A stretch of DNA of 64,000 nt from Mobula hypostoma (lineage: Eukaryota): NCBI RefSeq assembly GCF_963921235.1, contig NC_086097.1, forward strand, positions 20,152,001 to 20,216,000, read 5' to 3'. Below, piece by piece: positions 14,289-63,973 of this stretch. The notes under the pieces are model-generated. The model ran no database searches, was not told the origin of the DNA, and saw only the letters and a list, made by a program, of their open reading frames with translations. Both the position numbers and the translations under genes were made by a program. Every line of letters begins with the position of its first letter. Position 1 is the first letter of the stretch.

Positions 14289-17200
14289 AATGGTTGGGGG
14301 GTGGGAATCAAATTAAAGAGGCTAGGTGTGAGGAGGTTAGTTCACAACAGAGGGATGGGAACCAGTGCAGAGAGACAGAGGGGTGTAAAGTGAGCGTAGA
14401 AGCAAAAAGTACGAAGGGGAAAAGTAAAAGTGGCAGGCCGACAAATCCAGGGCAAGCATTAAAAAGGGCTAAGAGAGTTGTAAAAGAGCGCCTGAAGGCT
14501 TTATGTGTCAATGCAAGGAGCATTCGTAATAAGGTGGATGAATTGAAAGTGCAGATTGTTATTAATGATTATGATATAGTTGGGATCACAGAGACATGGC
14601 TCCAGGGTGACCAGGGATGGGAGCTCAACGTTCAGGAATATTCAATATTCAGGAGGGATAGACATGAAGGAAGGGGAGGTGGGGTGGCGTTGCTGGTTAA
14701 AAAAGAGATTAACGCAATAGAAAGGAAGGACATAAGCCGGGAAGATGTGGAATCGATATGGGTAGAGCTGCGTAACACTAAGGGGCAGAAGACGCTGGTG
14801 GGAGTTGTGTACAGGCCACCTAACAGTAGTAGTGAGGTCGGAGATGGTATTAAACAGGAAATTAGAAATGTGTGCAATAAAGGAACAGCAGTTATAATGG
14901 GTGACTTCAATCTACATGTAGATTGGGTGAACCAAATTGGTAAAGGTGCTGAGGAAGAGGATTTCTTGGAATGTATGCGGGATGGTTTTTTGAACCAACA
15001 TGTCGAGGAACCGACTAGAGAGCAGGCTATTCTGGACTGGGTTTTGAGCAATGAGGAAGGGTTAATTAGCGATCTTGTCATGAGAGGCCCCTTGGGTAAG
15101 AGTGACCATAATATGGTGGAATTCTTCATTAACATGGAGAGTGACATAGTTAATTCAGAAACAAAGGTTCTGAACTTAAAGAGGGGTAACTTTGAAGGTA
15201 TGAGTCGTGAATTAGCTAAGATAGACTGGCAAATGACACTTAAAGAATTGACGGTGGATATGCAATGGCAGGCATTTAAAGGTTGCATGGATGAACTACA
15301 ACAATTGTTCATCCCAGTTTGGCAAAAGAATAAATCAAGGAAGGTAGTGCACCCGTGGCTGACAAGAGAAATTAGGGATAGTATCAATTCCAAAGAAGTA
15401 GCATACAAATTAGCCAGAGAAAGTGGCTCACCTGAGGACTGGGAGAAATTCAGAGTTCAGCAGAGGAGGACAAAGGGCTTAATTAGGAAGGGAAAAAAAG
15501 ATTATGAGAGAAAACTGGCAGAGAACATAAAAACGGACTGTAAAAGCTTTTATAGATATGTAAAAAGGAAAAGACTGATAAAGACAAATGTAGGTCCCCT
15601 GCAGACAGAAACAGGTGAATTGATTATGGGGAGCAAGAACATGGCAGACCAATTGAATAATTATTTTGGTTCTGTCTTCACTAAGGAGGACATAAATAAT
15701 CTTCCAGAAATAGTAAGGGACAGAGGGTCCAGTGAGATGGAGGAACTGAGTGAAATACATGTTAGTAGGGAAGTGGTGTTAGGTAAATTGAAGGGATTGA
15801 AGGCAGATAAATCCCCAGGGCCAGATGGTCTGCATCCCAGAGTGCTTAAGGAAGTAGCCCAAGAAATAGTGGATGCATTAGTGATAATTTTTCAAAACTC
15901 GTTAGATTCTGGACTAGTTCCTGAGGATTGGAGGGTGGCTAATGTAACCCCACTTTTTAAAAAAGGAGGGAGAGAGAAACCGGGGAATTATAGGCCCGTT
16001 AGCCTAACGTCGGTGGTGGGGAAACTGCTGGAGTCAGTTATCAAGGATGTGATAACAGCACATTTGGAAAGCGGTGAAATGATCGGACAAAGTCAGCATG
16101 GATTTGTGAAAGGAAAATCATGTCTGACGAATCTCATAGAATTTTTTGAGGATGTAACTAGTAGAGTGGATAGGGGAGAACCAGTGGATGTGGTATATTT
16201 GGATTTTCAAAAGGCTTTTGACAAGGTCCCACACAGGAGATTAGTGTGCAAACTTAAAGCACACGGTATTGGGGGTAAGGTATTGGTGTGGGTGGAGAAT
16301 TGGTTAGCAGACAGGAAGCAAAGAGTGGGAATAAACGGGACCTTTTCAGAATGGCAGGCGGTGACTAGTGGGGTACCGCAAGGCTCAGTGCTGGGACCCC
16401 AGTTGTTTACAATATATATTAATGACTTGGATGAGGGAATTAAATGCAGCATCTCCAAGTTTGCGGATGACACAAAGCTGGGTGGCAGTGTTAGCAGTGA
16501 GGAGGATGCTAAGAGGATGCAGGGTGACTTGGATAGGTTGGGTGAGTGGGCAAACTCATGGCAGATGCAATTTAATGTGGATAAATGTGAAGTTATCCAC
16601 TTTGGTGGCAAAAATAGGAAAACAGATTATTATCTGAATGGTGGCCGATTAGGAAAAGGGGAGGTGCAACGAGACCTGGGTGTCATTATACACCAGTCAT
16701 TGAAAGTGGGCATGCAGGTACAGCAGGCGGTGAAAAAGGCGAACGGTATGCTGGCATTTATAGCGAGAGGATTCGAGTACAGGAGCAGGGAGGTACTACT
16801 GCAGTTGTACAAGGCCTTGGTGAGACCACACCTGGAGTATTGTGTGCAGTTTTGGTCCCCTAATCTGAGGAAAGACATCTTTGCCATAGAGGGAGTACAA
16901 AGAAGGTTCACCAGATTGATTCCTGGGATGGCAGGTCTTTCATATGAAGAAAGACTGGATGAACTGGGCTTGTACTCGTTGGAATTTAGAAGATTGAGGG
17001 GGGATCTGATTGAAACGTATAAGATCCTAAAGGGATTGGACAGGCTAGATGCGGGAAGATTGTTCCCGATGTTGGGGAGGTCCAGAACGAGGGGTCACAG
17101 TTTGAGGATAGAGGGGAAGCCTTTTAGGACCGAGATTAGGAAAAACTTCTTCACACAGAGAGTGGTGAATCTGTGGAATTCTCTGCCACAGCAAACTGTT

Positions 17201-17293
17201 GAGGCCAGTTCATTAGCTATGTTTAAAAGGAAGTTAGATATGGCCCTTGTGGCTACAGGGGTCAGGGGGTATGGAGGGAAGGCTGGGTTCTGA
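14273..17293 (+). CDS. CR1 ORF2 (APE endonuclease plus reverse transcriptase); no AUG upstream of the EN domain
   Basis: Open from 14273 to TGA 17293. Motifs ITETWL, YRPP, MGDFN, SDH, KSPGPDG, YRPVSLTS, QGSVLGP, FADD. The track start at 14294 is TTG; the first in-frame ATG is at 14897. Confidence 0.93.
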   Translation, partial: GDFKLEWLGGGNQIKEARCEEVSSQQRDGNQCRETEGCKVSVEAKSTKGKSKSGRPTNPGQALKRAKRVVKERLKALCVNARSIRNKVDELKVQIVINDYDIVGITETWLQGDQGWELNVQEYSIFRRDRHEGRGGGVALLVKKEINAIERKDISREDVESIWVELRNTKGQKTLVGVVYRPPNSSSEVGDGIKQEIRNVCNKGTAVIMGDFNLHVDWVNQIGKGAEEEDFLECMRDGFLNQHVEEPTREQAILDWVLSNEEGLISDLVMRGPLGKSDHNMVEFFINMESDIVNSETKVLNLKRGNFEGMSRELAKIDWQMTLKELTVDMQWQAFKGCMDELQQLFIPVWQKNKSRKVVHPWLTREIRDSINSKEVAYKLARESGSPEDWEKFRVQQRRTKGLIRKGKKDYERKLAENIKTDCKSFYRYVKRKRLIKTNVGPLQTETGELIMGSKNMADQLNNYFGSVFTKEDINNLPEIVRDRGSSEMEELSEIHVSREVVLGKLKGLKADKSPGPDGLHPRVLKEVAQEIVDALVIIFQNSLDSGLVPEDWRVANVTPLFKKGGREKPGNYRPVSLTSVVGKLLESVIKDVITAHLESGEMIGQSQHGFVKGKSCLTNLIEFFEDVTSRVDRGEPVDVVYLDFQKAFDKVPHRRLVCKLKAHGIGGKVLVWVENWLADRKQRVGINGTFSEWQAVTSGVPQGSVLGPQLFTIYINDLDEGIKCSISKFADDTKLGGSVSSEEDAKRMQGDLDRLGEWANSWQMQFNVDKCEVIHFGGKNRKTDYYLNGGRLGKGEVQRDLGVIIHQSLKVGMQVQQAVKKANGMLAFIARGFEYRSREVLLQLYKALVRPHLEYCVQFWSPNLRKDIFAIEGVQRRFTRLIPGMAGLSYEERLDELGLYSLEFRRLRGDLIETYKILKGLDRLDAGRLFPMLGRSRTRGHSLRIEGKPFRTEIRKNFFTQRVVNLWNSLPQQTVEASSLAMFKRKLDMALVATGVRGYGGKAGF

Positions 17294-18436
17294 GTTGGAT
17301 GATCAGCCATGATCATAATAAATGGCGGTGCAGGCTCGAAGGGCCGAATGGCCTACTCCTGCACCTATTTTCTATGTTTCTATGTTTCTATGAAATGGAG
17401 TGATGTAAGCCATGTGCAGGCAAATAGGCTTAGTTTGGATTAGTACCATGTTCGGCACAGACTCCCTGGGTCAAAGGACGTGTTCCTGTGCTGTTCTGTT
17501 CTATAGGGAACATTTGTGGAATTATTACCACAGATGATAAATAGTTATTAATATGGAATTTGCTTCTGTATGGAGTTGCTTTCAGATGAATAATTGATGT
17601 ATAATTTCATGACAATATAAAGGTAGTTGGGGAAATAAATTGCAAGAATAATATGAAGAGATAGATAGGTTAAGTAAGTGGGCAAAAAGTTGGCAAGTGG
17701 GAAATAGTGTAGGGAATGTAGGGGCATCATTTTGGTAGGAAGAATCAAAATCCAGAATACTGCTTAAATGGAGACAAAGGTTTTAAAGAAACACTGTGAA
17801 GGGATCTTATTGTCTTCGTGTATAAAACGAAGTCAGTACAGAGATTAATTAGAAAAGCAAACAGCTGCTGTTCTGTACCGCAGAAGGGGCTTTAGAAAGT
17901 AATATAAAAGTTGGGAAGTTGCTGCTGGCATAGCAGGGTTGGTGTAACCATGGTAAGCATAGCAGTTGGTATGATGCTGTTATAGCTCAGAGCGTTCCGG
18001 AGGTCAGTTCCGATGCCACCTGAAAGAAGTTTGTACATCCTTCCCGTGACAGCATGGGTTTCCTCCAAGTGCTCCAGTTTCTTCCTGATTAATGTAAACT
18101 GTCCTGTGATGAGGCAGGGGTTAAATAGGTGGGTTGCTAGGCACTATGGCTCGTCAGGCCAGAAAGGTCTCTTTCATGCTGTTTCTCTAAAATAGGACTT
18201 ATTTCATAATTTACTGGCATAATTTACATATTACTATTTAACTATTTATGGTTCTATTACTATTTATGGTGCAACTGTAACAAAAACCAATTTACCCCCG
18301 GGATCAATAAAGTATGACAATGACTATGACTAGAGAAGCCCTGATCTTATTGAATGGTTAGTAGACTCAAGAGATCCAATAGTATTCACCTTTTGTATGG
18401 AAACTTAAACTAGTTTGACGATTGCTCTGGAAAATG

Positions 18437-32497: not shown

Positions 32498-35455
32498 ATG
32501 TTTGACATAACATCTCTGTCGGCATTCTGGATCAAAGTCAAGGCTAAGTATCCTGAGATAGCCACGAAAGCACTGAAAATGTTGCTTCCATTTGGCAGGC
32601 CGACAAATCCAGGGCAAGCATTAAAAAGGGCTAAGAGAGTTGTAAAAGAGCGCCTGAAGGCTTTATGTGTCAATGCAAGGAGCATTCGTAATAAGGTGGA
32701 TGAATTGAAAGTGCAGATTGTTATTAATGATTATGATATAGTTGGGATCACAGAGACATGGCTCCAGGGTGACCAGGGATGGGAGCTCAACGTTCAGGGA
32801 TATTCAATATTCAGGAGGGATAGACACGAAGGAAGGGGAGGTGGGGTGGCGTTGCTGGTTAAAAAAGAGATTAACGCAATAGAAAGGAAGGACATAAGCC
32901 GGGAAGATGTGGAATCGATATGGGTAGAGCTGCGTAACACTAAGGGGCAGAAGACGCTGCTGGGAGTTGTGTACAGGCCACCTAACAGTAGTAGTGAGGT
33001 CGGAGATGGTATTAAACAGGAAATTAGAAATGTGTGCAATAAAGGAACAGCAGTTATAATGGGTGACTTCAATCTACATGTAGACTGGGTGAACCAAATT
33101 GGTAAAGGTGCTGAGGAAGAGGATTTCTTGGAATGTATGCGGGATGGTTTTTTGAACCAACATGTCGAGGAACCGACTAGAGAGCAGGCTATTCTGGACT
33201 GGGTTTTGAGCAATGAGGAAGGGTTAATTAGCGATCTTGTCGTGAGAGGCCCCTTGGGTAAGAGTGACCATAATATGGTGGAATTCTTCATTAACATGGA
33301 GAGTGACGTAGTTAATTCAGAAACAAAGGTTCTGAACTTAAAGAGGGGTAACTTTGAAGGTATGAGACATGAATTAGCTAAGATAGACTGGCAAATGACA
33401 CTTCAAGGATTGACGGTGGATATGCAATGGCAGGCATTTAAAGGTTGCATGGATGAACTACAACAATTGTTCATCCCAGTTTGGCAAAAGAATAAATCAA
33501 GGAAGGTAGTGCACCCGTGGCTGACAAGAGAAATTAGGGATAGTATCAATTCCAAAGAAGTAGCATACAAATTAGCCAGAGAAAGTGGCTCACCTGAGGA
33601 CTGGGAGAAATTCAGAGTTCAGCAGAGGAGGACAAAGGGCTTAATTAGGAAGGGGAAAAAAGATTATGAGAGAAAACTGGCAGAGAACATAAAAACGGAC
33701 TGTAAAAGCTTTTATAGATATGTAAAAAGGAAAAGACTGATAAAGACAAATGTAGGTCCCCTGCAAACAGAAACAGGTGAATTGATTATGGGGAGCAAGG
33801 ACATGGCAGACCAATTGAATAATTACTTTGGTTCTGTCTTCACTAAGGAGGACATAAATAATCTTCCAGAAATAGTAAGGGACAGAGGGTCCAGTGAGAT
33901 GGAGGAACTGAGCGAAATACATGTTAGTAGGGAAGTGGTGTTAGGTAAATTGAAGGGATTGAAGGCAGATAAATCCCCAGGGCCAGATGGTCTGCATCCC
34001 AGAGTGCTTAAGGAAGTGGCCCAAGAAATAGTGGATGCATTAGTGATAATTTTTCAAAACTCGTTAGATTCTGGACTAGTTCCTGAGGATTGGAGGGTGG
34101 CTAATGTAACCCCACTTTTTAAAAAAGGAGGGAGAGAGAAACCGGGGAATTATAGGCCGGTTAGCCTAACGTCGGTGGTGGGGAAACTGCTGGAGTCAGT
34201 TATCAAGGATGTGATAACAGCACATTTGGAAAGCGGTGAAATGATCGGACAAAGTCAGCATGGATTTGTGAAAGGAAAATCATGTCTGACGAATCTCATA
34301 GAATTTTTTGAGGATGTAACTAGTAGAGTGGATAGGGGAGAACCAGTGGATGTGGTATATTTGGATTTTCAAAAGGCTTTTGACAAGGTCCCACACAGGA
34401 GATTAGTGTGCAAACTTAAAGCACATGGTATTGGGGGTAAGGTATTGGTGTGGGTGGAGAATTGGTTAGCAGACAGGAAGCAAAGAGTGGGAATAAACGG
34501 GACCTTTTCAGAATGGCAGGCGGTGACTAGTGGGGTACCGCAAGGCTCAGTGCTGGGACCCCAGTTGTTTACAATATATATTAATGACTTGGATGAGGGA
34601 ATTAAATGCAGCATCTCCAAGTTTGCGGATGACACGAAGCTGGGTGGCAGTGTTAGCAGTGAGGAGGATGCTAAGAGGATGCAGGGTGACTTGGATAGGT
34701 TGGGTGAGTGGGCAAACTCATGGCAGATGCAATTTAATGTGGATAAATGTGAAGTTATCCACTTTGGTGGCAAAAATAGGAAAACAGATTATTATCTGAA
34801 TGGTGGCCGATTAGGAAAAGGGGAGGTGCAACGAGACCTGGGTGTCATTATACACCAGTCATTGAAAGTGGGCATGCAGGTACAGCAGGCGGTGAAAAAG
34901 GCGAACGGTATGCTGGCATTTATAGCGAGAGGATTCGAGTACAGGAGCAGGGAGGTACTACTGCAGTTGTACAAGGCCTTGGTGAGACCACACCTGGAGT
35001 ATTGTGTGCAGTTTTGGTCCCCTAATCTGAGGAAAGACATCCTTGCCATAGAGGGAGTACAAAGAAGGTTCACCAGATTGATTCCTGGGATGGCAGGTCT
35101 TTCATATGAAGAAAGACTGGATGAACTGGGCTTGTACTCGTTGGAATTTAGAAGATTGAGGGGGGATCTGATTGAAACGTATAAGATCCTAAAGGGATTG
35201 GACAGGCTAGATGCGGGAAGATTGTTCCCGATGTTGGGGAGGTCTAGAACGAGGGGTCACAGTTTGAGGATAGAGGGGAAGTCTTTTAGGACCGAGGTTA
35301 GGAAAAACTTCTTCACACAGAGAGTGGTGAATCTGTGGAATTCTCTGCCACAGCAAACTGTTGAGGCCAGTTCATTAGCTATGTTTAAAAGGAAGTTAGA
35401 TATGGCCCTTGTGGCTACAGGGGTCACGGGGTATGGAGGGAAGGCTGGGTTCTGA
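32498..35455 (+). CDS. Chimeric ORF: 32 aa of hAT transposase C-terminus plus intact CR1 ORF2 (985 aa)
   Basis: Real ATG at 32498. FWIKVKAKYPEIATKALKMLLPF (hAT dimerization region) runs in frame into CR1 GRPTNPGQ. Expression unknown. Confidence 0.7.
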   Translation: MFDITSLSAFWIKVKAKYPEIATKALKMLLPFGRPTNPGQALKRAKRVVKERLKALCVNARSIRNKVDELKVQIVINDYDIVGITETWLQGDQGWELNVQGYSIFRRDRHEGRGGGVALLVKKEINAIERKDISREDVESIWVELRNTKGQKTLLGVVYRPPNSSSEVGDGIKQEIRNVCNKGTAVIMGDFNLHVDWVNQIGKGAEEEDFLECMRDGFLNQHVEEPTREQAILDWVLSNEEGLISDLVVRGPLGKSDHNMVEFFINMESDVVNSETKVLNLKRGNFEGMRHELAKIDWQMTLQGLTVDMQWQAFKGCMDELQQLFIPVWQKNKSRKVVHPWLTREIRDSINSKEVAYKLARESGSPEDWEKFRVQQRRTKGLIRKGKKDYERKLAENIKTDCKSFYRYVKRKRLIKTNVGPLQTETGELIMGSKDMADQLNNYFGSVFTKEDINNLPEIVRDRGSSEMEELSEIHVSREVVLGKLKGLKADKSPGPDGLHPRVLKEVAQEIVDALVIIFQNSLDSGLVPEDWRVANVTPLFKKGGREKPGNYRPVSLTSVVGKLLESVIKDVITAHLESGEMIGQSQHGFVKGKSCLTNLIEFFEDVTSRVDRGEPVDVVYLDFQKAFDKVPHRRLVCKLKAHGIGGKVLVWVENWLADRKQRVGINGTFSEWQAVTSGVPQGSVLGPQLFTIYINDLDEGIKCSISKFADDTKLGGSVSSEEDAKRMQGDLDRLGEWANSWQMQFNVDKCEVIHFGGKNRKTDYYLNGGRLGKGEVQRDLGVIIHQSLKVGMQVQQAVKKANGMLAFIARGFEYRSREVLLQLYKALVRPHLEYCVQFWSPNLRKDILAIEGVQRRFTRLIPGMAGLSYEERLDELGLYSLEFRRLRGDLIETYKILKGLDRLDAGRLFPMLGRSRTRGHSLRIEGKSFRTEVRKNFFTQRVVNLWNSLPQQTVEASSLAMFKRKLDMALVATGVTGYGGKAGF

Positions 35456-35551
35456 GTTGGATGATCAGCCATGATCATAATAAATGGCGGTGCAGGCTCG
35501 AAGGGCCGAATGGCCTACTCCTGCACCTATTTTCTATGTTTCTATGTTTCT
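32594..35551 (+). mobile_element. 5'-truncated CR1, near-identical to 13089-17392
   Basis: Colinear with about 14432-17390, same (TTTCTATG)n tail, short TSD ATTT (32590-93 / 35552-55). Confidence 0.95.
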
Positions 35552-56118: not shown

Positions 56119-56265
56119 CACTTTCAAGGACTCTACAACTCATGTTCTCTGTATTATTTATATTTTTATTATTTGTATGATTTCTCTTCTTTTTCACATT
56201 GGTCATGTCAGTCTTTGATTATGTGGAGTTATTTCATAAATTCTATCATATTTCTTTATTGTGTA

Positions 56266-56463
56266 TGTTGTGTATGTGGCCTGATTACACAACAATGCTA
56301 TTAATAAAAACGCTGGAGACGGGAGCTAAGTTTCATGTTTCTTTACTGGCATAATCAGAACTCAGCACACACATACAGATCAATATGCACCTAATAGCGC
56401 ATTCAACGACATGTTACTAAAACATAAAGTAGTCCCTTATTATACTGTAGGCTATACGGTACA
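56266..56463 (-). repeat. 3' LTR (198 bp)
   Basis: Direct repeat of 59939-60136. Preceded on the minus strand by the polypurine tract. Confidence 0.95.
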
Positions 56464-56476: not shown

Positions 56477-56786
56477 ATTTTAATAATGTATCAACTGTTT
56501 TTTTACTGGGGCACAATGCTAAGTATGTTTACCCTTAACATACAAACACCTACCATTTGTTTACTTAGTAACTTAATAATATCAAATTATAACAAGCCTT
56601 TTTCTTTTACTTTTGGTCTAAGACCCATTTATAACTCAAGTCTCTGGGGAGATCTTCTCTGCCTCTCCGGGTAATGTCTGTCAATAAACCTGTTTGTTTT
56701 AATAAGATTTCCATATAAAGCCACGAAAAGCTGACCTCTGAGCATAGAGAGTTAAGAAGATGTGCGCCTCCAACTTGCTAAGAGTT

Positions 56787-57713
56787 CTAGGGAGCAGATC
56801 ACCTCTGTATAATGAAGTCTCCTCTGTGCAGATGTCCTAGATATATGCATCCTTGTGCTATCACTTGTCTTCCTTACCCATATCTCATTTGTTCCAACTG
56901 AGCTAATTACACAATCTTCGTATTCTCCTTAGATTCCAAATAGATAGCCTGACCTTTATGATACCATCTCTTATCGTAATATAACTTTCCATCTCCTATT
57001 TGTGTTTCATATCTTTGTGCTGGTGATTCAGCAGGAGTGCTGGGAAGATGCTCAGGAGAGGACGGAGATGCTGGTCTTTTCAGAGGTTTAAGCTTATTGA
57101 GAGTTCGCAAATCTTCCATTATCTGTTCATCTGTTAACAAGAAATTTAACTGCGCAGATACAGGTTTTCGTCTTTTGTCTGTAATTGGAACAGGGTTATT
57201 AGGTCTCCTCCTTAGTTTCCTAGTCATTATTGGCTATACCTCCATAGAATCTCCAGTGAGTTCCATTGTTAGCCTCTCATTCTCAATCATCTTTTTCTTT
57301 TCTTCTAACTCAATCTTTTTATCTTCAAATTCCTTCACTGCTGCTTTCTTCTCTTTAATATAATTCCTTTCCACTTGATCTGTCTCCAGTTGCAGAAAAA
57401 GCTCTGCATTTCGTATTCTTTCCTTGTATTGTTGATCTAGTTTCTTCATCCTTTTCTGATACTCCTGCAAAGTGCCTTCCTGTAGCTGCTGTAGCTGTCT
57501 TTTGAGAGATGTCAATTTCTCCTGGTACATCTGCTCTTTTACTTCCAGGTAGTCTTCATCATCCTGCTTATTGGCAATATCAGTCTCCCTTGCATCCTCT
57601 GTATCTTCATCTGAGTCGCGGCCACGGATACTGCGTTCGTCCTCATCAATGCTGTCAAGGTCCTCCTCGTCATTGTAATAGTCAACAATGGGTGAGAGGA
57701 GAGCTGCAGACAT
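56787..57713 (-). pseudogene. SUDS3: Processed (intronless) SUDS3 retrocopy, full CDS span
   Basis: MSAALLSP...[52 protein letters not shown]...[11 protein letters not shown]...[13 protein letters not shown]...[13 protein letters not shown]...[20 protein letters not shown] matches SUDS3. Lesions: TAG at 57236-34, frameshift near 56912, TGA at 56801-799, and an 8-codon deletion relative to human SUDS3 as recalled. Confidence 0.95.
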
Positions 57714-59556
57714 CTTCCCTGCCGAGCTGCCCTCCTTTGTTGACACATCTAGTGCCTTGACGGTATGCCAATCCAACTGGATTTTTCTGAGCCATTCACA
57801 TCCCAGCAACTGTGGTCCTCCATTTTTCAGTACATAGAGGTCCAGCTGCTGTGCTTCGTCTCTGTAGGTCACTGTCCCTTTAATTTTACCTTTGGGACGC
57901 ACTTTCTGTCCTGTAAGTCTTTAGCAGTAGCTTAGTTCGTTTCAGAGGTATGTGAGAAAACAGTCATTTGTAGTCGTGTACAGAGATCACTGTTGAAGCT
58001 GACCCTGTGTCCAACTCCATTTTCAGTCTCACACCTGCCACTTGTGGAGTGATCCTTATTACTCTTCAATCATCTGTCTCTTTCACGCTGTGAAGTCGTA
58101 GACAAGACAATTCACTTTCGTCTGAGTCGTTTTCATCAGAACTGCTTTTTTCCATTTTGTGTACATTGTTGTATTTTCCTTCTGGGGTTTCTTGTTTCTC
58201 TGCATTTTGTCCTTTTTCTGCTGTTTACTAGCTTTGTATACTCTGGCAATGTGGCCCTGTTTGCTACAGTTTCTGCATTCTTGGTCTTTAAACCAACAGT
58301 CATCCAGGTCATGTGACCTGTCCCCACAACGGTAACATTTCTTTCCTTCATATCTGTTCAGTGACATTTTATTCGTGGCATATTCCAGAGATTTTTGTTG
58401 CATCTCGGGAGCACCCCGTGCCGCTGTTTCCATTGATATTGCAATGTTTAGCGCTTTCTCGAATGAAAGGTCTCCTTCACACAGAAGGTTTCACAGTGCA
58501 TGCCACACACTAACCTGTCCCTCAATGCGTCCAATAGACTAGCTCCAAATTGACAATGTTCTGATAATTGCGCAATTCAGCACAATATTCAGAAATGCTT
58601 TCATTTTTGCTCTGATTCCGATTGTGAAATTTAAATCTTTCAGCAATAACCAGTAGTTTAGGGTTTAAATGCTGTTGGAGAGGGTCTACTATTTGTTTGA
58701 ACGTTTTGTCAGCTGGCTTTTCGGGGGTTAACAAGTTCCGTAGCAGGCGGTATGTTTTTGTTCCCATAATGAGTAAGACACTGGCTTTCTTTTAATCCTT
58801 AACACTGTTAGGCTCACAATATAACTCCACTCTTTCAATGTCAGGCTACGTCCACAGTAGACAGGATAATTTTGAAAACGCCGGTTTCCCATAAAAATGA
58901 TAGGTGTCCACACCAGGTGTTTTTAAAAATACCTCCGTCCACATTAAAGCAGGTATTTGGGCGAATCTCCTCCTACTGGGCATGCACAGGACACATCTAC
59001 AGAAAACAAGCGAAGAGGAAACAGTATACTATTTCCGTTTCCGCGGCCGGCGTTGTGCTATTTCCATTGGTCAAAAATTAAGAGTACCTACAACAACAGC
59101 AAAAGAAAGTTTTCAACCATGTCTTTGAGGAATACAAAGAAAACCTCCGCTGGAAAAAGCAGCTATGAACACAGACAATAAAGTAAACAACACACACGAA
59201 GCCGTCCACCATTGTTGTTGTGGTGGTGTTGGAAGTTGCGTTCAAGAAAACAATGAAATGCTGCACTGCCACCACCATCTGTTCCGGTACGTCATAACAG
59301 CGTTTTTAAAAAAGCTCTGATTACCCCGTACACACTACACCTCCCAACCAGCATTTTTAGATTTACACACTCTGAAGAGCGTTTTAGAAAAGTTCCGTTT
59401 TCGGGGGAGGAAAACGCCGTTTCAGTGTGGACGGAGGGTCAAAACAAAGAGAAAAGGCTTCGGTTGCGGATTTATCCGGTCTACTGTGGACATAGCCTAA
59501 GTTGCCCAGTCTTCAATGCCACTATCAAATGCTATAATGGTTCCAATCACTGCCAT
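57714..59556 (-). pseudogene. Gypsy gag-protease, disrupted
   Basis: ATG at 59556 gives MAVIGTIIAFDSGIEDWAT|YIERVELYC across the MITE. Also seen: TYRLLRNLLTPEKP...IAERFKFH, zinc knuckles CYRCGDRSHDLDDC and CRNCSKQGH, protease MELDTGSA (58020) and LLGCEWL. Frameshifts and stops present. Confidence 0.92.
58844..59497. mobile_element. PIF/Harbinger-like MITE inserted in gag
   Basis: TIRs GGCTACGTCCACAGTAGACAGGATAA / GGCTATGTCCACAGTAGACCGGATAA. 3-bp TSD TAA (one copy mutated to TCA). Removing it restores the gag frame. Confidence 0.9.
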
Positions 59557-59924
59557 CTTTGTTACGTTAATTAAGCCCTGTTCTCCCCTTATTTTCCTCT
59601 TTTGACTCACACATCCTTTTTGCTAGCGCCACGAGCACACTCCGTCTAGATCTGTGTTGCCACTTTTCATCTCCCTTCTGGGGCAGGCAGACCCTCAGCC
59701 CCTGGGTGTCAGCGTTGGCTGTGGTCTCAGCTGGACGTGCTGCGGCTCCGACTGTGTCTCTTGGTTTCCTGACGTTCCCGACTCCAGCTGTGCTCATGCT
59801 TCCTTTCAGACTCGCAGCCTCGCTCTGCCTCCTTCTCCCACTCCTTGGCTCATTCCTTGCGCTCTTCTTCCGAGTGTCGTTATCAATTAAAACACGGCGT
59901 TCTGATACAATGTAGGCTCATTAA

Positions 59925-59935
59925 CCCTGTCGCCA
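59925..59935 (-). promoter_or_regulatory. Primer binding site TGGCGACAGGG
   Basis: Starts 3 nt inside the 5' LTR boundary with TGG (complement of tRNA CCA). Resembles the tRNA-Ser(GCT) 3'-end complement TGGCGACGAGG; tRNA identity uncertain. Confidence 0.8.
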
Positions 59936-59938
59936 ATT

Positions 59939-60136
59939 TGTTGTGTACGTGGCCTGGTTACACAACAATGCTATTAGTGAAAACGCTGGAGACGGGAGCT
60001 AAGTTTCATGGTTCTTTACTGGCATAATCCGAACTCGGCACACACGTACAGATCAATATGCTTCTAATAGCGCATTCAACGACATGTTACTAAAACATAA
60101 AGTAGTCCCTTATTATACGGTAGGCTATATGGTACA
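59939..60136 (-). repeat. 5' LTR (198 bp)
   Basis: Direct repeat of 56266-56463 with 12 substitutions by manual count. Followed on the minus strand by the PBS. Confidence 0.95.
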
Positions 60137-60317
60137 GTGCATTTTGTAAATGGCTGCAAGAAAATGAATCTCAAGATTGTATATGGCAACATATAAATAC
60201 TTAAGATAATAATTTACTTTGACTTTGAAATGACTGGCCCCAGGTATCCACTGTCCAACTTTTTAAAAAAAATTTTTTAAAAACAGCACTATGCAAGGAC
60301 AGAAGACGTCTACTTAC

Positions 60318-60425
60318 CTCAGCGAGGTGGAGGGTTGCAACCACAGCAGACTGATCGTACTTCCACTGTACAGTTTGAATGTTGGCAGACTGCCGTACCA
60401 TTGAGTTTGGGCCGTCTGCCCCAAT
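60318..60425 (-). CDS. COQ6: COQ6 exon [36 protein letters not shown]
   Basis: Flavin monooxygenase DG motif (IGADG.NS). TAG/GTAAGT boundaries, 108 bp. Confidence 0.96.
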
Positions 60426-62044
60426 CTACTTGGAGGAGAGATGCAACCTGTTTAATGTGAAGCTAAATTGAATAGAGAAAAATCACTCAATCAACACCAT
60501 GCAGTGATCAGTAACACATTCTAAAACATCGTATTAGTAAGATGGAGTCAGCTAGGTATTCCCTCACCTTTAGAATTCTGGAATGGACAAGTGTGAAACC
60601 ACCTTAGTAGCAAAAATAAAGCTCTATGGATTAACACAAGAAGAACACATACAAAATCTGAAGGAACTTAGCAGGTCAGGCAGCATCTATGGAAAGGAAG
60701 GGAGGCAGATCATACCTCCTCCCACACACACACATCTTCTCCCTCATCTGGCCTCACATATCACCTGCCTTGTGCTCTCACCTTCTTATTCTGGCTTCTG
60801 ATGAAGGGTCTCGGTCCGAAACGTCAACTGTTTAACCCCCTCCATAGATGCAGCCTGACTTCCTGAATTCCTCCAACACTTTTTGTGTGCTTCTCAATTA
60901 ATGTACTGTTCTACATTTAATAAACATCAGCCAGAGGACGGCTTCGGACCACCAGTGCTGGAGTGCAGACCATCTGCCACTTTCCCACTTCTCAGTCAGG
61001 TGGATTCGCAGAGAGAAGGGTGGGAAATGAGCCTCTATGAAATGGAAAGAACAGTGTCCACTCAGGGATACGTAAACCATGCAGTGTGGGACTCAGCGAT
61101 ACGGAGCACAGGGCACAATCTCTCCAAGTGCTGGGACACTATACCCTCCATATTCTCCTCCCACTTTAAAGCCAAAGAGGTGAACTAACTGCAGAGCAAG
61201 ACACAGAAAGTTGGAGGGCTCAGTGAGTCAGCCAACATCTATGGAGGCAAATGAAAGTTGATGTCTGGGGTCAAGACCCTTCGTTAGGAAGTCAATTTTC
61301 CATTCACAAAGAATGTGTAAATGAACCCTAGCTGAAGCAGAATCTATGACAAAATCCCAGAGCTACCAATACCGCTGCAAATGGTAGGACCTCCGTGGCT
61401 ACCCATTTGAATTCGACATCCTATTCTGACATGGGTGACCACAGCTCCTCCACTCCCACGATGAAGCAGGTTGTAAGAGCAACACCTTCTGTTCTGTCTT
61501 GGTAGCCCAACCTGATGGCATGAACATAGATCTGTCTAACTTTCAGTAATTATTTCCCCCTTCTTTTTTCAAATCCCCATTCTGGTTGCCCTCTCACTCC
61601 TCCTCTTCTCCTCACCTGCCCATCACATCCCTCTTGCTCCCCTCGGTGTTCCCTTTCTCCCATGGTCCACTGTTCTTTCCAATCAGCCTCCTTCTTCAGC
61701 CCTTAACCTCTTCCATTTATGACCTCCCAGCTCCTTACTTTACCCCCCCACCAATCTAGTCTCACCTATCACCTGGCCAGCTTGTACTCCTACCCGTCTC
61801 CCCACCTTCTCATTCTGGCTTCCTTTCCAGACATGAAGAGTTTTATCCTGAAATGCCAACTGTTTATTCACTTCCTTAGATGCTGCCTGACCTGCTATGT
61901 TCCTCCAGCATTTTGAGTGTGTTTCAAAGGGTAACAACAATGCCAAGGACAGGTATGCCTATTGAAATACTCAGCATGATGGTTCAACAGGCAAAGAACC
62001 CTGTCCCTTATAGCAGACAGTTTCATGGTTTGATTGTTGCTCAC

Positions 62045-62175
62045 CAGTAACTTGGTCTCCACTTTACTCCCATCAGCCAACTCAATCTGCACCCATGGTT
62101 TGCTGCCGGGCAACTGGTGGGGTTCAGGCCAGGTATACTTCACTGCTCTGCTCCTGTACAGCACGTGCACTCTGT
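62045..62175 (-). CDS. COQ6: COQ6 exon [44 protein letters not shown]
   Basis: TAG acceptor, GTGAGC donor, 131 bp, phase-compatible. Confidence 0.96.
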
Positions 62176-63125
62176 CTAAGGAAAACAACACCCAGCTAAG
62201 CAACGATCACTTCATCAGCCTTTCACTAGAACTTCACTGGCTGAATTGTAAAGAGTTCATCTTTGTGCTTGTTCAATGTCTCACCATCACAGTGGCCTTG
62301 AACATAGCAGAACTTTGGGAATTCCATCCTACTAAGGGAACAGGCATGGGAACATGAAAGTTAAGTGAACACAGGGGTGGAACTTGTGAAGAGTGGTGAC
62401 ATGATGATTGGCTCTGGTTCAGTGGCTTGAGATGATGCTATGTATTGGTCCACTTACTGCAGCACTTCATGTCAGGGGAGATGGCATAAAAATTGAGCAT
62501 TGGGGGGCCATGGGGGTAGGTTTTTAGGGGGGCCTCACTGATGAGCTGGTTGTCAACAGCACCTAACAGATCAACAGAATGGAAGGTGTGTTGCAGTGAA
62601 AGGGGCCCACACATACCTAGATAGGTATTTTAATGCTTGCTCTGTACTAACCTAATTGGAGTCTGTAGATAATTGGAGTTTGTGTCTTTCTGCTTATCAA
62701 AGCCACATTCGACAGCCCCGTAATGGAACAAAACACTAGCTGCCCTGGACACCTACAGTTTGCCCTTTACAAGGGGTGGCTCTGTGACATTCAACCCAGC
62801 CCCTCCCTGACTTCAAACCCCAATGTTCTGTGATGAACACCCCAAGGGAAGTAACACTTATTCTCATCAGAAACACATCAAGGCTCTGAGATCGAGTTTC
62901 CAAACTCATGTCCCCTTGCACAAACAAGACCTGCCATTTGAAGATAGGCCTCAGTTTAATGTCTCACCCCAAAGATGAGGAGCAGGATGGTAAATGTAAC
63001 ACAAGGATTGCCTTATCAGGATCTTGGGAAACTAAGTGGTGAGTTCTAAGCTTATGAACACGTTAAGTCACTGAAACCTTCCCAACCCCTCACGTGAATG
63101 TCCTGAGTTCAAGCTTCACACCTAC

Positions 63126-63252
63126 CTGCAGTGGCTGCCAGCTGTTTTGACAAAGCCATTAATATCACATCGTTCTCAACAATGAAGCCCATGTCCTCTG
63201 ACAGGTCAACTTTATCGAAAGTGATCATTGCATCAGAGCACTCGTCCCAAAC
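63126..63252 (-). CDS. COQ6: COQ6 exon [42 protein letters not shown]
   Basis: Matches COQ6 [32 protein letters not shown]/GTAGG boundaries on the minus strand. Upstream exons lie beyond the window. Confidence 0.96.
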
Positions 63253-63361
63253 CTGAAGGAAGAACGTCAGAATTTCAAACTCACCACAGCTAACAATCAA
63301 GCAAGAGGCGCAGCACAAACTGAACATCTGAGAAAGGTACAAGGAACCTATACAAACCTTA

Positions 63362-63973
63362 TGTAATGCCTTGGTTCTTTTTTTTTCCTGTTATGCTGTA
63401 CATATTTCATTTAGCAGTTCTGTAAGAGTAGTCTGCTCTGCTTTCAGCTTGGTTGGGTTATTGTTGAAGATAAGGGATGATGAGGAATGTGTCCCAACCA
63501 ATTAGGATGGGAAAACTGAGGGGAGGTTTTTCCTGGTGAGGGACACTAAGGTTGGGCTTGGGGCTTTTGTTCGGGGGAGGTGAAGAGAGAAGACACTGGA
63601 GAGAATAGGTTGTAGGATTCGATCCGGAGCGGAATTCGATGAAGCCGGGGCAATGACCACTTGAGGATCGGTGAATATGGCGAAATGTTGAGCTCCAACT
63701 TGTGCACATTTGACTGTTTAATTAAAATGGGCCCTTTTCTTTTAGTTTTTCTTTACTAACCCTTTGGTTAAGATTCATAAATATAATTCCTTTAATTGTA
63801 TGTAGTGTACTGTCTGTCATTTTGTGGCATCAATTTGTAACAGGGTAGCAAATTACACAGAATCTGCACAAACCAGGGCCTGGGGTGGAATAACCGACTC
63901 AATCTCACAAGTTCGGCGGGACCGGAGAGTGTCTTCCCTGGACTTATACAGCCAAGAAACCAGAGGGTTTTCA
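63362..63973. mobile_element. Solo LTR (related to 41643-42207)
   Basis: TGTAAT...TTTCA termini and a perfect 4-bp TSD CTTA. Confidence 0.85.

What the first reader, a model, noticed from the sequence alone, without database searches (positions are those of the whole stretch)
57234..57902. Captured SUDS3 is fused in frame to the Gag-protease polyprotein where RT would begin
Seen: one open frame runs from the protease C-terminal half ([26 protein letters not shown]) through a short linker ([11 protein letters not shown]) into the SUDS3 start Met and coiled-coil region, ending at a premature TAG. Established: Gypsy proteases process the polyprotein downstream of PR. Inference: the founder element could have made a Gag-PR-SUDS3 polyprotein and released or packaged SUDS3. 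An in-frame junction has a 1-in-3 chance by accident, and this copy is now disabled.
Basis: partly seen in the sequence, partly recalled or inferred. Interest (0 to 1): 0.7.

Follow-up and report, generated by a model that had tools for sequence, protein, structure and literature searches.

The report
Ray retrotransposon with in-frame SUDS3 cargo
This is one dead copy of a ray jumping-gene family in which a spliced copy of the host chromatin gene SUDS3 sits where the copying enzymes belong, joined in frame to the element's protease, but the cargo decays like unselected DNA, so the fusion is likely an accident of a single capture rather than a working protein.

Summary
Observation confirmed: one open frame (57920-57234, minus strand) runs from the C-terminal half of a Gypsy protease through the SUDS3 start codon to a premature stop. 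It lies in a 3.9-kb LTR element (LTRs 94% alike) in a COQ6 intron of a ray. RT, RNase H and integrase are replaced by an intronless SUDS3 coding sequence. It is not single-copy: sibling contigs in three DNA runs and eight annotated Mobula/Hypanus loci share one 8-codon loss, so all descend from one capture. Most sibling depth shares the in-frame junction (57726, 12 nt before the ATG) and lacks this copy's stop. The founder therefore probably had one gag-protease-SUDS3 frame. But one capture is one throw (chance about 0.3), and selection is not seen: 102 of 135 copy-private changes hit invariant columns (blind expectation 77%, orthologue control 4.5%). One weak contrary sign: silent changes are in excess in this copy. 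No RNA contig bridges the junction. New here: the leader carries a second captured host piece, the end of ACIN1. The scan found this family before at other loci of this genome. Verdict: LTR-mediated retrocopy with secondary amplification, a known kind; a functional fusion is unsupported.

The parts
59939..60136 (-). 5' LTR, 198 nt, TG...CA ends
   Evidence: 12 differences from the 3' LTR in 198 nt, K2P 0.064
59922..59935 (-). primer-binding-site-like stretch (starts TGG, 3 nt after the LTR); priming tRNA not identified
   Evidence: sequence; label from knowledge of LTR elements
59679..59879 (-). second captured host mRNA piece in the leader: last 60 codons of ACIN1 with its stop and probably ~30 nt of 3' UTR, sense to the element, decayed
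   Evidence: only hit of 179 candidates: Hypanus acin1b; tblastn 73% identity, E 1.85e-17, 59879-59712; 0 of 1000 shuffles reach the score; 1428-nt RNA? contig matches 59679-59859 and runs on at both sides
59500..59556 (-). first codons of gag
   Evidence: residues 1-19 of P0208 (weak alone, E 0.048)
58840..59498 (.). later insertion with terminal inverted repeats and a 3-nt target duplication-like flank (MITE; Harbinger-like is a recalled label), splitting gag
   Evidence: skipped by 10 contigs in X1, 9 in X5, 4 in X15 (main joint row); ends shown
58170..58839 (-). gag with zinc-knuckle region, broken (stop 58794; frame changes near 58570, 58490, 58179)
   Evidence: Retrotrans_gag E 0.062 and zf-CCHC E 0.00075, both under cut-off; 45-55% identity to P0208
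57912..58176 (-). spacer and N-terminal half of the aspartic protease with D-T-G at 58011-58003, broken (stops 58068, 57966; frame change at 57911)
57726..57911 (-). C-terminal half of the protease and start of the protease-RT spacer, up to the 5' switch point
   Evidence: loose ends at 57726 in X1 (2 contigs), X11 (11), X15 (1)
57714..57725 (-). 12 nt between switch point and ATG, inferred SUDS3 5' UTR; keeps the frame
   Evidence: 12 nt, multiple of 3; the parent's 5' UTR itself was not seen
56787..57713 (-). intronless full-length SUDS3 coding sequence; family-wide 24-nt loss at 57306; copy-level breaks at 57236 (stop), 56911 (frame change) and 56801 (stop)
   Evidence: (P0005 residues 1-326 in one alignment, E 4e-160)
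   Evidence: 10348 of 10361 depth in X1 and 1143 of 1160 in X11 read another letter at 57236
56705..56786 (-). probable start of SUDS3 3' UTR, no poly(A) tract
   Evidence: (RNA? contig X16 record 17 matches 56705-56913)
56629..56682 (-). probable last codons of pol after the 3' switch point
   Evidence: C-terminal 17 residues of P0185, 59% identity, weak alone (E 0.078); similar C-terminal motifs in P0208, P0234, P0310
56464..56475 (-). polypurine tract
56266..56463 (-). 3' LTR
56261..56265 (-). target-site duplication, 4 of 5 letters alike with 60137-60141

Best explanation
This is a decayed copy of a Gypsy-type LTR element whose RT, RNase H and integrase are replaced by a spliced host SUDS3 coding sequence in frame with the protease, likely by a double template switch during reverse transcription in one founder that then multiplied with borrowed enzymes and likely carried SUDS3 as an unselected passenger. 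Shown: LTRs, target duplication, broken gag and protease, intronless SUDS3 between protease and the probable last pol codons, many siblings sharing the junction frame and an 8-codon loss, neutral-looking decay, and an ACIN1 piece in the leader. Inferred: a SUDS3 mRNA was co-packaged in the particle; RT jumped to it 12 nt before the ATG and back near the end of pol; the founder kept LTRs, primer site and polypurine tract and so was copied in trans by an uncaptured partner; its gag frame would have read on through protease into SUDS3, so a fusion polypeptide may have been made, but nothing shows it did anything.
For: Structure. Replacement, not interruption: about 800 codons of a relative's polyprotein (P0185 residues ~196 to 996, holding RT, RNase H, integrase) are missing between the two switch points, and no poly(A) tract follows SUDS3. 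One capture, many copies: 10 of 169 SUDS3 proteins examined carry the 8-residue loss, namely this copy and 8 other loci (one with two isoforms) in Mobula birostris, M. hypostoma and Hypanus sabinus, while the 4 ray parent proteins keep it; 0 of 6060 depth in X1 and 0 of 3110 in X11 has the 24 nt back, only the RNA? contigs do; 1235 and 1132 contigs lie on 811 bases. Shared frame: no length difference reaches half of the DNA depth between 57643 and 57911, and 7 of the 16 listed DNA pieces cross 57726 with 31 or more letters on both sides. Neutral decay: 102 of 135 non-family changes in 9 copies fall on invariant columns against 77% expected blind (p 0.68), while 74 orthologues put 71 of 1572 (4.5%) there; ray parents differ at 0-1 of about 300-318 columns (P0004, P0012); private divergence of this copy (25 in 761 nt, 3.3%) equals half the LTR distance (3.0%). 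Family-wide SUDS3 changes hit conserved columns. Mechanism as described by Tan et al. 2016 (PMC5131818).
Against: This copy's private SUDS3 changes in 57150-57713 are 7 amino-acid-changing (stop included) to 8 silent, fewer than the 70-73% expected with a transition bias (p 0.025-0.045; p 0.004 without bias, counts made by hand); 4 of the 8 silent ones sit at CpG-type places, which the window-based model undercounts, and the protease half gives 7 to 2 (Fisher p 0.21). A first, cruder version of the column test gave a deficit at invariant columns (72 of 192 against 91, p 0.007); it vanished when partial and mis-modelled orthologues and the variable N-terminus were left out. Terminal decay says nothing about selection on the few source copies, and the founder branch holds too few changes for a rate. 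The capture took the whole coding sequence, in sense and in frame, and few listed contigs go on as uncaptured partner at 57726 (2 in X1, 11 in X11), which is what a cargo advantage would also give. Family-type SUDS3 5' contigs stand in two RNA? runs. Microsimilarity at the switch points was not seen because the parent's 5' UTR was not recovered.
Confidence: 0.7

Rival explanations
1. The frame was favoured for the RNA's sake, not the protein's: reading on through SUDS3 moves the stop of the gag frame close to the 3' LTR, which would spare the element RNA from nonsense-mediated decay and let it go on supplying Gag to itself, so in-frame captures out-multiply out-of-frame ones.
For: In-frame junction and an in-frame (24-nt) family-wide loss; amino-acid content of SUDS3 unconstrained; SUDS3 stop lies about 320 nt before the 3' LTR. 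Inference from general knowledge of mRNA surveillance.
Against: Two frame-keeping events have a joint chance of about 1 in 9-10, not small; no test of RNA stability; whether gag was open in source copies is only partly seen (length differences at 57911, 58179, 58567 carried by 23-88% of sibling depth).
Confidence: 0.12
2. One reading: the founder's Gag-protease-SUDS3 polyprotein was selected; the protease released, or Gag carried, an altered SUDS3 that disturbed SIN3-HDAC silencing of the element.
For: Whole coding sequence captured in frame right behind the protease; large amplification; silent excess in this copy; Sds3 gives the complex its dimerization through a coiled coil and is tied to pericentric heterochromatin (PMC8800102, passages), so a version with an 8-residue loss could act dominantly (inference).
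Against: Blind decay in 9 copies; no fusion among 48 longer proteins or 150 protease hits; no bridging RNA contig; no paper found linking SUDS3 to retrotransposon silencing among the 9 listed (listing only).
Confidence: 0.08
3. The captured SUDS3 and ACIN1 pieces served at the small-RNA level, as TART-A's captured nxf2 piece is proposed to: element-derived piRNAs or siRNAs lower the host genes, or the host-like sequence blunts silencing. The frame is then irrelevant.
For: Both cargoes come from nuclear gene-regulation genes; precedent PMC7785250 (abstract).
Against: No small-RNA data; ray SUDS3 protein is unchanged between Pristis, Mobula and Hemitrygon, unlike the fast-evolving target in the precedent; highly expressed housekeeping mRNAs are the commonest passengers.
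Confidence: 0.07
4. A LINE-made processed pseudogene of SUDS3 landed inside a Gypsy element, with the pol loss a separate deletion.
For: LINEs are the dominant retroelements of batoids (10.64898/2026.10.27.761883, passages) and are held to drive retrocopies outside mammals (10.64898/2026.06.26.734816, passages and section 6).
Against: No poly(A) tract or duplication around SUDS3; the cargo ends about 80 nt after its stop and both ends abut element sequence about 800 codons apart. It would still need LTR-driven amplification afterwards.
Confidence: 0.03

Closest known systems
LTR-mediated retrocopies of animals (Tan et al. 2016, PMC5131818; abstract and sections 6, 8, 9 read)
   Same: Spliced host mRNA between two parts of one LTR element; no LINE hallmarks; sense orientation; secondary copying as a non-autonomous element; several parent genes in one element.
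   Different: Their cases are mostly partial mRNAs in few copies; here a whole coding sequence was amplified to many copies and is found in two ray families, and the frame continues from the element's own gag-protease rather than only matching the parent's frame.
Maize Bs1 (as described in PMC5131818 section 9)
   Same: LTR-flanked chimera of pieces of several host genes; all copies share the switch points.
   Different: Bs1 has 1-5 copies and a reported hybrid protein; here there are far more copies and no sign of a functional product.
Gag-oncogene fusions of acutely transforming retroviruses (recalled; search returned 0 papers)
   Same: Host coding sequence replaces pol, in frame behind gag; the element is defective and needs a helper.
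   Different: No env, germ-line retrotransposon, no shown protein and no sign of selection on the cargo.
Drosophila TART-A with captured nxf2 sequence (PMC7785250, abstract read)
   Same: A retroelement carrying part of a host gene tied to silencing.
   Different: TART-A is non-LTR, acts through piRNAs, and its target evolves fast; ray SUDS3 is static and no small-RNA data were available.

Membership tests
LTR-mediated retrocopy (Tan et al. 2016) | host mRNA flanked on both sides by parts of one LTR element | tested here: met
   the 3' pol remnant is weak alone (E 0.078) but PPT and 3' LTR follow
LTR-mediated retrocopy (Tan et al. 2016) | introns absent | tested here: met
   residues 1-326 of ray SUDS3 align in one stretch of 921 nt; that the parent has introns is recalled and fits its splice isoforms
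LTR-mediated retrocopy (Tan et al. 2016) | no poly(A) tail or target duplication around the cargo | tested here: met
   read from the sequence
LTR-mediated retrocopy (Tan et al. 2016) | microsimilarity at the switch points | tested here: inconclusive
   the parent mRNA contigs stopped aligning at 57647, so its 5' UTR could not be compared
LTR-mediated retrocopy (Tan et al. 2016) | secondary copying with shared switch points | tested here: met
LTR-mediated retrocopy (Tan et al. 2016) | co-transcription with the flanking element | tested here: inconclusive
   family-type contigs on both sides in RNA? runs, none bridging by 31 letters each side; RNA status is a guess
Ty3/Gypsy element, non-autonomous derivative | TG...CA LTRs, primer site, polypurine tract, target duplication | tested here: met
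   priming tRNA not identified
Ty3/Gypsy element, non-autonomous derivative | gag with zinc knuckle and aspartic protease; order PR-RT-RNase H-IN | tested here: met
   gag and protease remnants in the window; the order is shown only in relatives at about 45% identity (P0208, P0234, P0310)
Ty3/Gypsy element, non-autonomous derivative | own RT and integrase absent | tested here: met
   no alignment of the relatives' RT, RNase H or integrase domains to the element
Gag-oncogene-type functional fusion (recalled features) | host coding sequence in frame with gag in a helper-dependent element | tested here: met
   junction frame shared by majority of sibling depth; openness of the whole gag-protease frame in source copies only partly seen
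Gag-oncogene-type functional fusion (recalled features) | cargo kept or shaped by selection | tested here: not met
   (102 of 135 changes at invariant columns, as expected blind); applies to inserted copies, source copies not resolved; one weak contrary count in this copy
Gag-oncogene-type functional fusion (recalled features) | fusion protein is made | not testable with these tools
   no ribosome or peptide data; no annotated fusion

The most novel reading that the evidence does not exclude
A vertebrate Gypsy element captured a core subunit of the SIN3-HDAC repressor in frame behind its protease and spread because the altered SUDS3 (8 residues short in the dimerizing coiled coil) was released or delivered as a dominant-negative against its own silencing: an oncogene-style capture used as a counter-defence by a non-infectious retrotransposon, possibly with a second, shorter leader-SUDS3 product (as in the Mobula gene model P0116).
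Probability: 0.08. Interest if true: 0.85.

Novelty: new member of a known kind. Interest (0 to 1): 0.42.

Why it matters
As it stands, it is a large vertebrate example of LTR-driven gene capture and it offers a plain reason for a published oddity: a 2026 preprint lists SUDS3 among the five most retrocopied genes of cartilaginous fishes and reads such lists as LINE-driven formation plus lineage-specific selection (10.64898/2026.06.26.734816, section 6), whereas the ray copies seen here share one founder lesion and so count as one capture multiplied by an LTR element. The other genes on that list could be checked for the same cause. If the fusion had been selected, it would be the first retrotransposon known to me to use a captured chromatin co-repressor subunit as a protein counter-defence; the many copies make that testable.

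Tried and rejected
No whole genome was held, so copies could not be counted or compared locus by locus; summed contig depth is not a copy number and is not used as one. No RNA holder was listed on record (20 of 24 runs hold a part, 10 studies, none half of the words; I laid 5 of the 24: X1, X5, X11, X15, X16; shares of the others are not used). ARAGORN found no tRNA in the window. Search for longer proteins gave no Gag- or protease-SUDS3 fusion (48 hits); none of 150 protease hits holds a SUDS3 motif. PDB search with the leader piece found nothing. A leader-to-linker joint as in gene model P0116 was not among the 15 joints shown (93 not shown), so splice, deletion or gene-model artefact stays open. 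First column test was replaced by a cleaner one: 143 orthologues cut to 74 full-length rows without long mismatch runs, columns limited to parent residues 57-222 and 233-325, changes shared by 4 or more copies left out, P0009 cut at residue 184. The script stopped at an LTR offset slip after printing the ACIN1 results; redid the rest. Paper searches for this family found no description: SUDS3 + retrotransposon (9 papers), SUDS3/retrocopy/gypsy/stingray terms (11), captured host gene/gag fusion terms (1), ACIN1 + SUDS3 + LTR + captured (0); the manta genome preprint has no SDS3 or SUDS3 and the VGP paper no SUDS3. Supplements of the bioRxiv retrocopy preprint (tables 8-11, copies per species) could not be seen and may bear on how many SUDS3 copies it counted and in which species.
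Full report
Observation. The minus strand holds a 228-codon stop-to-stop frame, 57920-57234, with the protease end motif, the linker and the SUDS3 start at 57713, closing at TAG. Pfam Sds3 is hit above cut-off. The first part matches the end of the protease domain of Gypsy polyproteins (434 hits at E up to 0.001, best 150 listed); full-length hits are single frames with the order gag, protease, RT, RNase H, integrase (P0208, P0234, P0310).

Anatomy. The frame lies in a 3.87-kb element: LTRs at 60136-59939 and 56463-56266 with TG...CA ends and 12 differences in 198 nt (K2P 0.064), a primer-site-like stretch, a polypurine tract and a 5-nt target duplication with one mismatch. tblastn of natural relatives maps gag from 59556, the protease to 57914-57741 and its N-half in another frame, and 17 C-terminal pol residues at 56682-56632 (weak alone, E 0.078); nothing of RT, RNase H or integrase aligns. 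Ray SUDS3 residues 1-326 align without introns at 57713-56793. This copy is dead several times over: a 658-nt insert in gag, stops at 58794, 58068, 57966, 57236 and 56801, frame changes near 58570, 58490, 58179, 57911 and 56911. The element sits in sense within an intron of COQ6 (three upstream exons match the COQ6 model). The nearest SUDS3 relatives are from Mobula, Hypanus, Hemitrygon and Pristis, so the host is most likely a myliobatiform ray (inference).

Not single-copy. Of 169 SUDS3 proteins examined (120 of 747 listed, 48, 1), 10 lack the same 8 residues: this copy and 8 further loci (one with two isoforms), three in Mobula birostris, four in M. hypostoma, one in Hypanus sabinus; the four ray parent proteins keep them. 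In public DNA runs 19079 and 17505 contigs lie on the element, with all 30 bins covered (X1, X5; repeats in the flank and the insert add to these counts), and 1235 and 1132 on the 811 bases around the junction (X1, X11), with tens of distinct contigs at most places. None of the DNA depth at 57306 has the 24 nt back (0 of 6060, 0 of 3110); only the RNA? contigs, which I take as the parent mRNA, do. So the copies descend from one capture that is at least as old as the Mobula-Hypanus split (inference; horizontal transfer not excluded). Depth is not a copy number; earlier scan notes speak of hundreds of copies, which I could not test.

The junction. Contigs that match the protease side break off at 57726 and go on in unlike sequence (2 in X1, 11 in X11, 1 in X15); I read these as the uncaptured partner element. 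Twelve nt separate this point from the ATG. Between 57643 and 57911 no length difference reaches half of the DNA depth, and 7 of the 16 listed DNA pieces bridge the junction (X1 records 5, 6; X11 records 12-16; individual pieces do carry gaps, 0-13 letters, at places not given). The stop at 57236 is private (10348 of 10361 depth in X1 differs), and 67% and 59% of depth differs in length from the window at 57911; 23-88% does so at 58179 and 58567. But since every copy inherited one junction, the evidence that the frame is more than luck remains one event at odds near 0.3.

Selection. After insertion: nine copies differ from the ray parent at 5-10% of residues where Pristis, Mobula and Hemitrygon parents differ at 0-1 (P0003 differs only in an isoform tail and one site). 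With 74 clean full-length orthologues, 200 of 259 core columns are invariant; 102 of 135 non-family changes in the copies fall there (75.6% against 77.0% blind, p 0.68), whereas orthologues put 71 of 1572 there. These annotated copies were picked by gene finders for long frames, which if anything favours finding constraint. This copy's private divergence (3.3%) matches half its LTR distance (3.0%). Before amplification: the family-wide SUDS3 has replacements at parent positions 43, 187 and 271 (columns 99, 99 and 96% conserved) and the 8-residue loss in an invariant stretch, against one silent family-wide change seen in 57150-57647; that is not the mark of purifying selection, though numbers are tiny and a deliberately altered protein would look the same. 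Against my reading: private SUDS3 changes of this copy are 7 amino-acid-changing to 8 silent (p 0.025-0.045 with transition bias), half of the silent ones at CpG-type places, and the first column test gave a deficit that did not survive cleaning.

Expression. In two runs guessed to be RNA, contigs of family type cover the SUDS3 5' part (X15 record 20, X16 record 27) and the protease part, and one contig of the uncaptured type is present (X15 record 22), but none bridges 57726 with 31 letters on each side (best: X16 record 28, 22 letters on the protease side). One RNA? contig matches the window across the insert edge without a substitution (X15 record 12), as COQ6 intron read-through would give. 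Contigs show neither strand nor level, so this is inconclusive.

A second cargo. An abundant 1428-nt RNA? contig matched the leader at 59679-59859 and ran on at both sides. The window frame there, with X at stops, found one protein, Hypanus ACIN1; its last 60 residues align at 59879-59712 with 73% identity (E 1.85e-17), ending at the same stop, and 0 of 1000 shuffles reach the score. The M. hypostoma model P0116 begins with this leader read in another frame (71% identity to 59853-59731) and continues into the same linker and SUDS3, so the ACIN1 piece is shared with at least one Mobula copy. Whether P0116 reflects a splice, a deletion or a modelling artefact is open.

Mechanism. The parts fit the template-switch model of Tan et al. 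(PMC5131818; abstract and sections 6, 8, 9 read): a host mRNA in the particle, two switches, a chimera that keeps the cis signals and is copied again as a non-autonomous element; they report such copies in mosquito, zebrafish, chicken and mammals, multi-gene chimeras, and Bs1 with shared switch points. Shown here: structure, multiplicity, shared frame, neutral decay. Inferred: the switches, the helper, the founder's open frame. Not shown: any protein, cleavage or packaging. I put 0.70 on a passenger, 0.12 on selection for frame at the RNA level, 0.08 on a selected fusion protein, 0.07 on a small-RNA role, 0.03 on a LINE origin.

Novelty. The kind is known. My searches found no paper on this family. 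A 2026 preprint names SUDS3 among the top five retrocopy parents of cartilaginous fishes without mention of an LTR carrier in the passages and section I read (supplements not seen). Earlier notes of this scan describe the same family at other loci of this genome, one of them the same in-frame question with the same verdict; I saw them after reaching my reading and they are not independent support. The ACIN1 piece is not named in the lines shown of those notes. Interest 0.42.

Noticed in passing
window 59679-59879 (-): The element's leader holds the last 60 codons and stop of host ACIN1, a second captured mRNA piece, also present in a Mobula copy.
   Followed up: yes
P0116 (Mobula hypostoma) against window 59853-59731 and 57779-56793: Gene model joins the leader directly to the linker and SUDS3, skipping gag and protease, with the SUDS3 start Met changed; splice, internal deletion or artefact not resolved.
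   Followed up: partly
P0122, P0006 (Mobula): Other copies show linker-like residues before SUDS3 but with a frame change (P0122) or loss of the start Met (P0006): copy-level decay at the junction.
   Followed up: no
window 58840-59498: MITE-like insertion with terminal inverted repeats in gag, absent from many siblings and far deeper in the runs than the element, so itself a high-copy family.
   Followed up: partly
window 60201-60425, 61895-62206, 63109-63390 (-): Exons of COQ6; the element lies in sense in the intron after the third of them.
   Followed up: partly
window 14431-17382 and 32593-35544: Several repeat pairs at a constant spacing of 18162 nt, 99-100% alike where shown: a near-identical multi-kilobase LINE-like copy or a local duplication.
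   Followed up: no
run X11 records 10 and 11 on window 57340-57719: SUDS3-like DNA contigs that stop at 57719 (one with 57 unlike letters upstream): rearranged copies or an independent SUDS3 retrocopy.
   Followed up: no
bioRxiv 10.64898/2026.06.26.734816 section 6: The other top retrocopy parents in cartilaginous fishes (MIPOL1, SDF2L1, SLU7, ZNF276) and PIWIL2 in amphibians may likewise be single captures amplified by elements.
   Followed up: no
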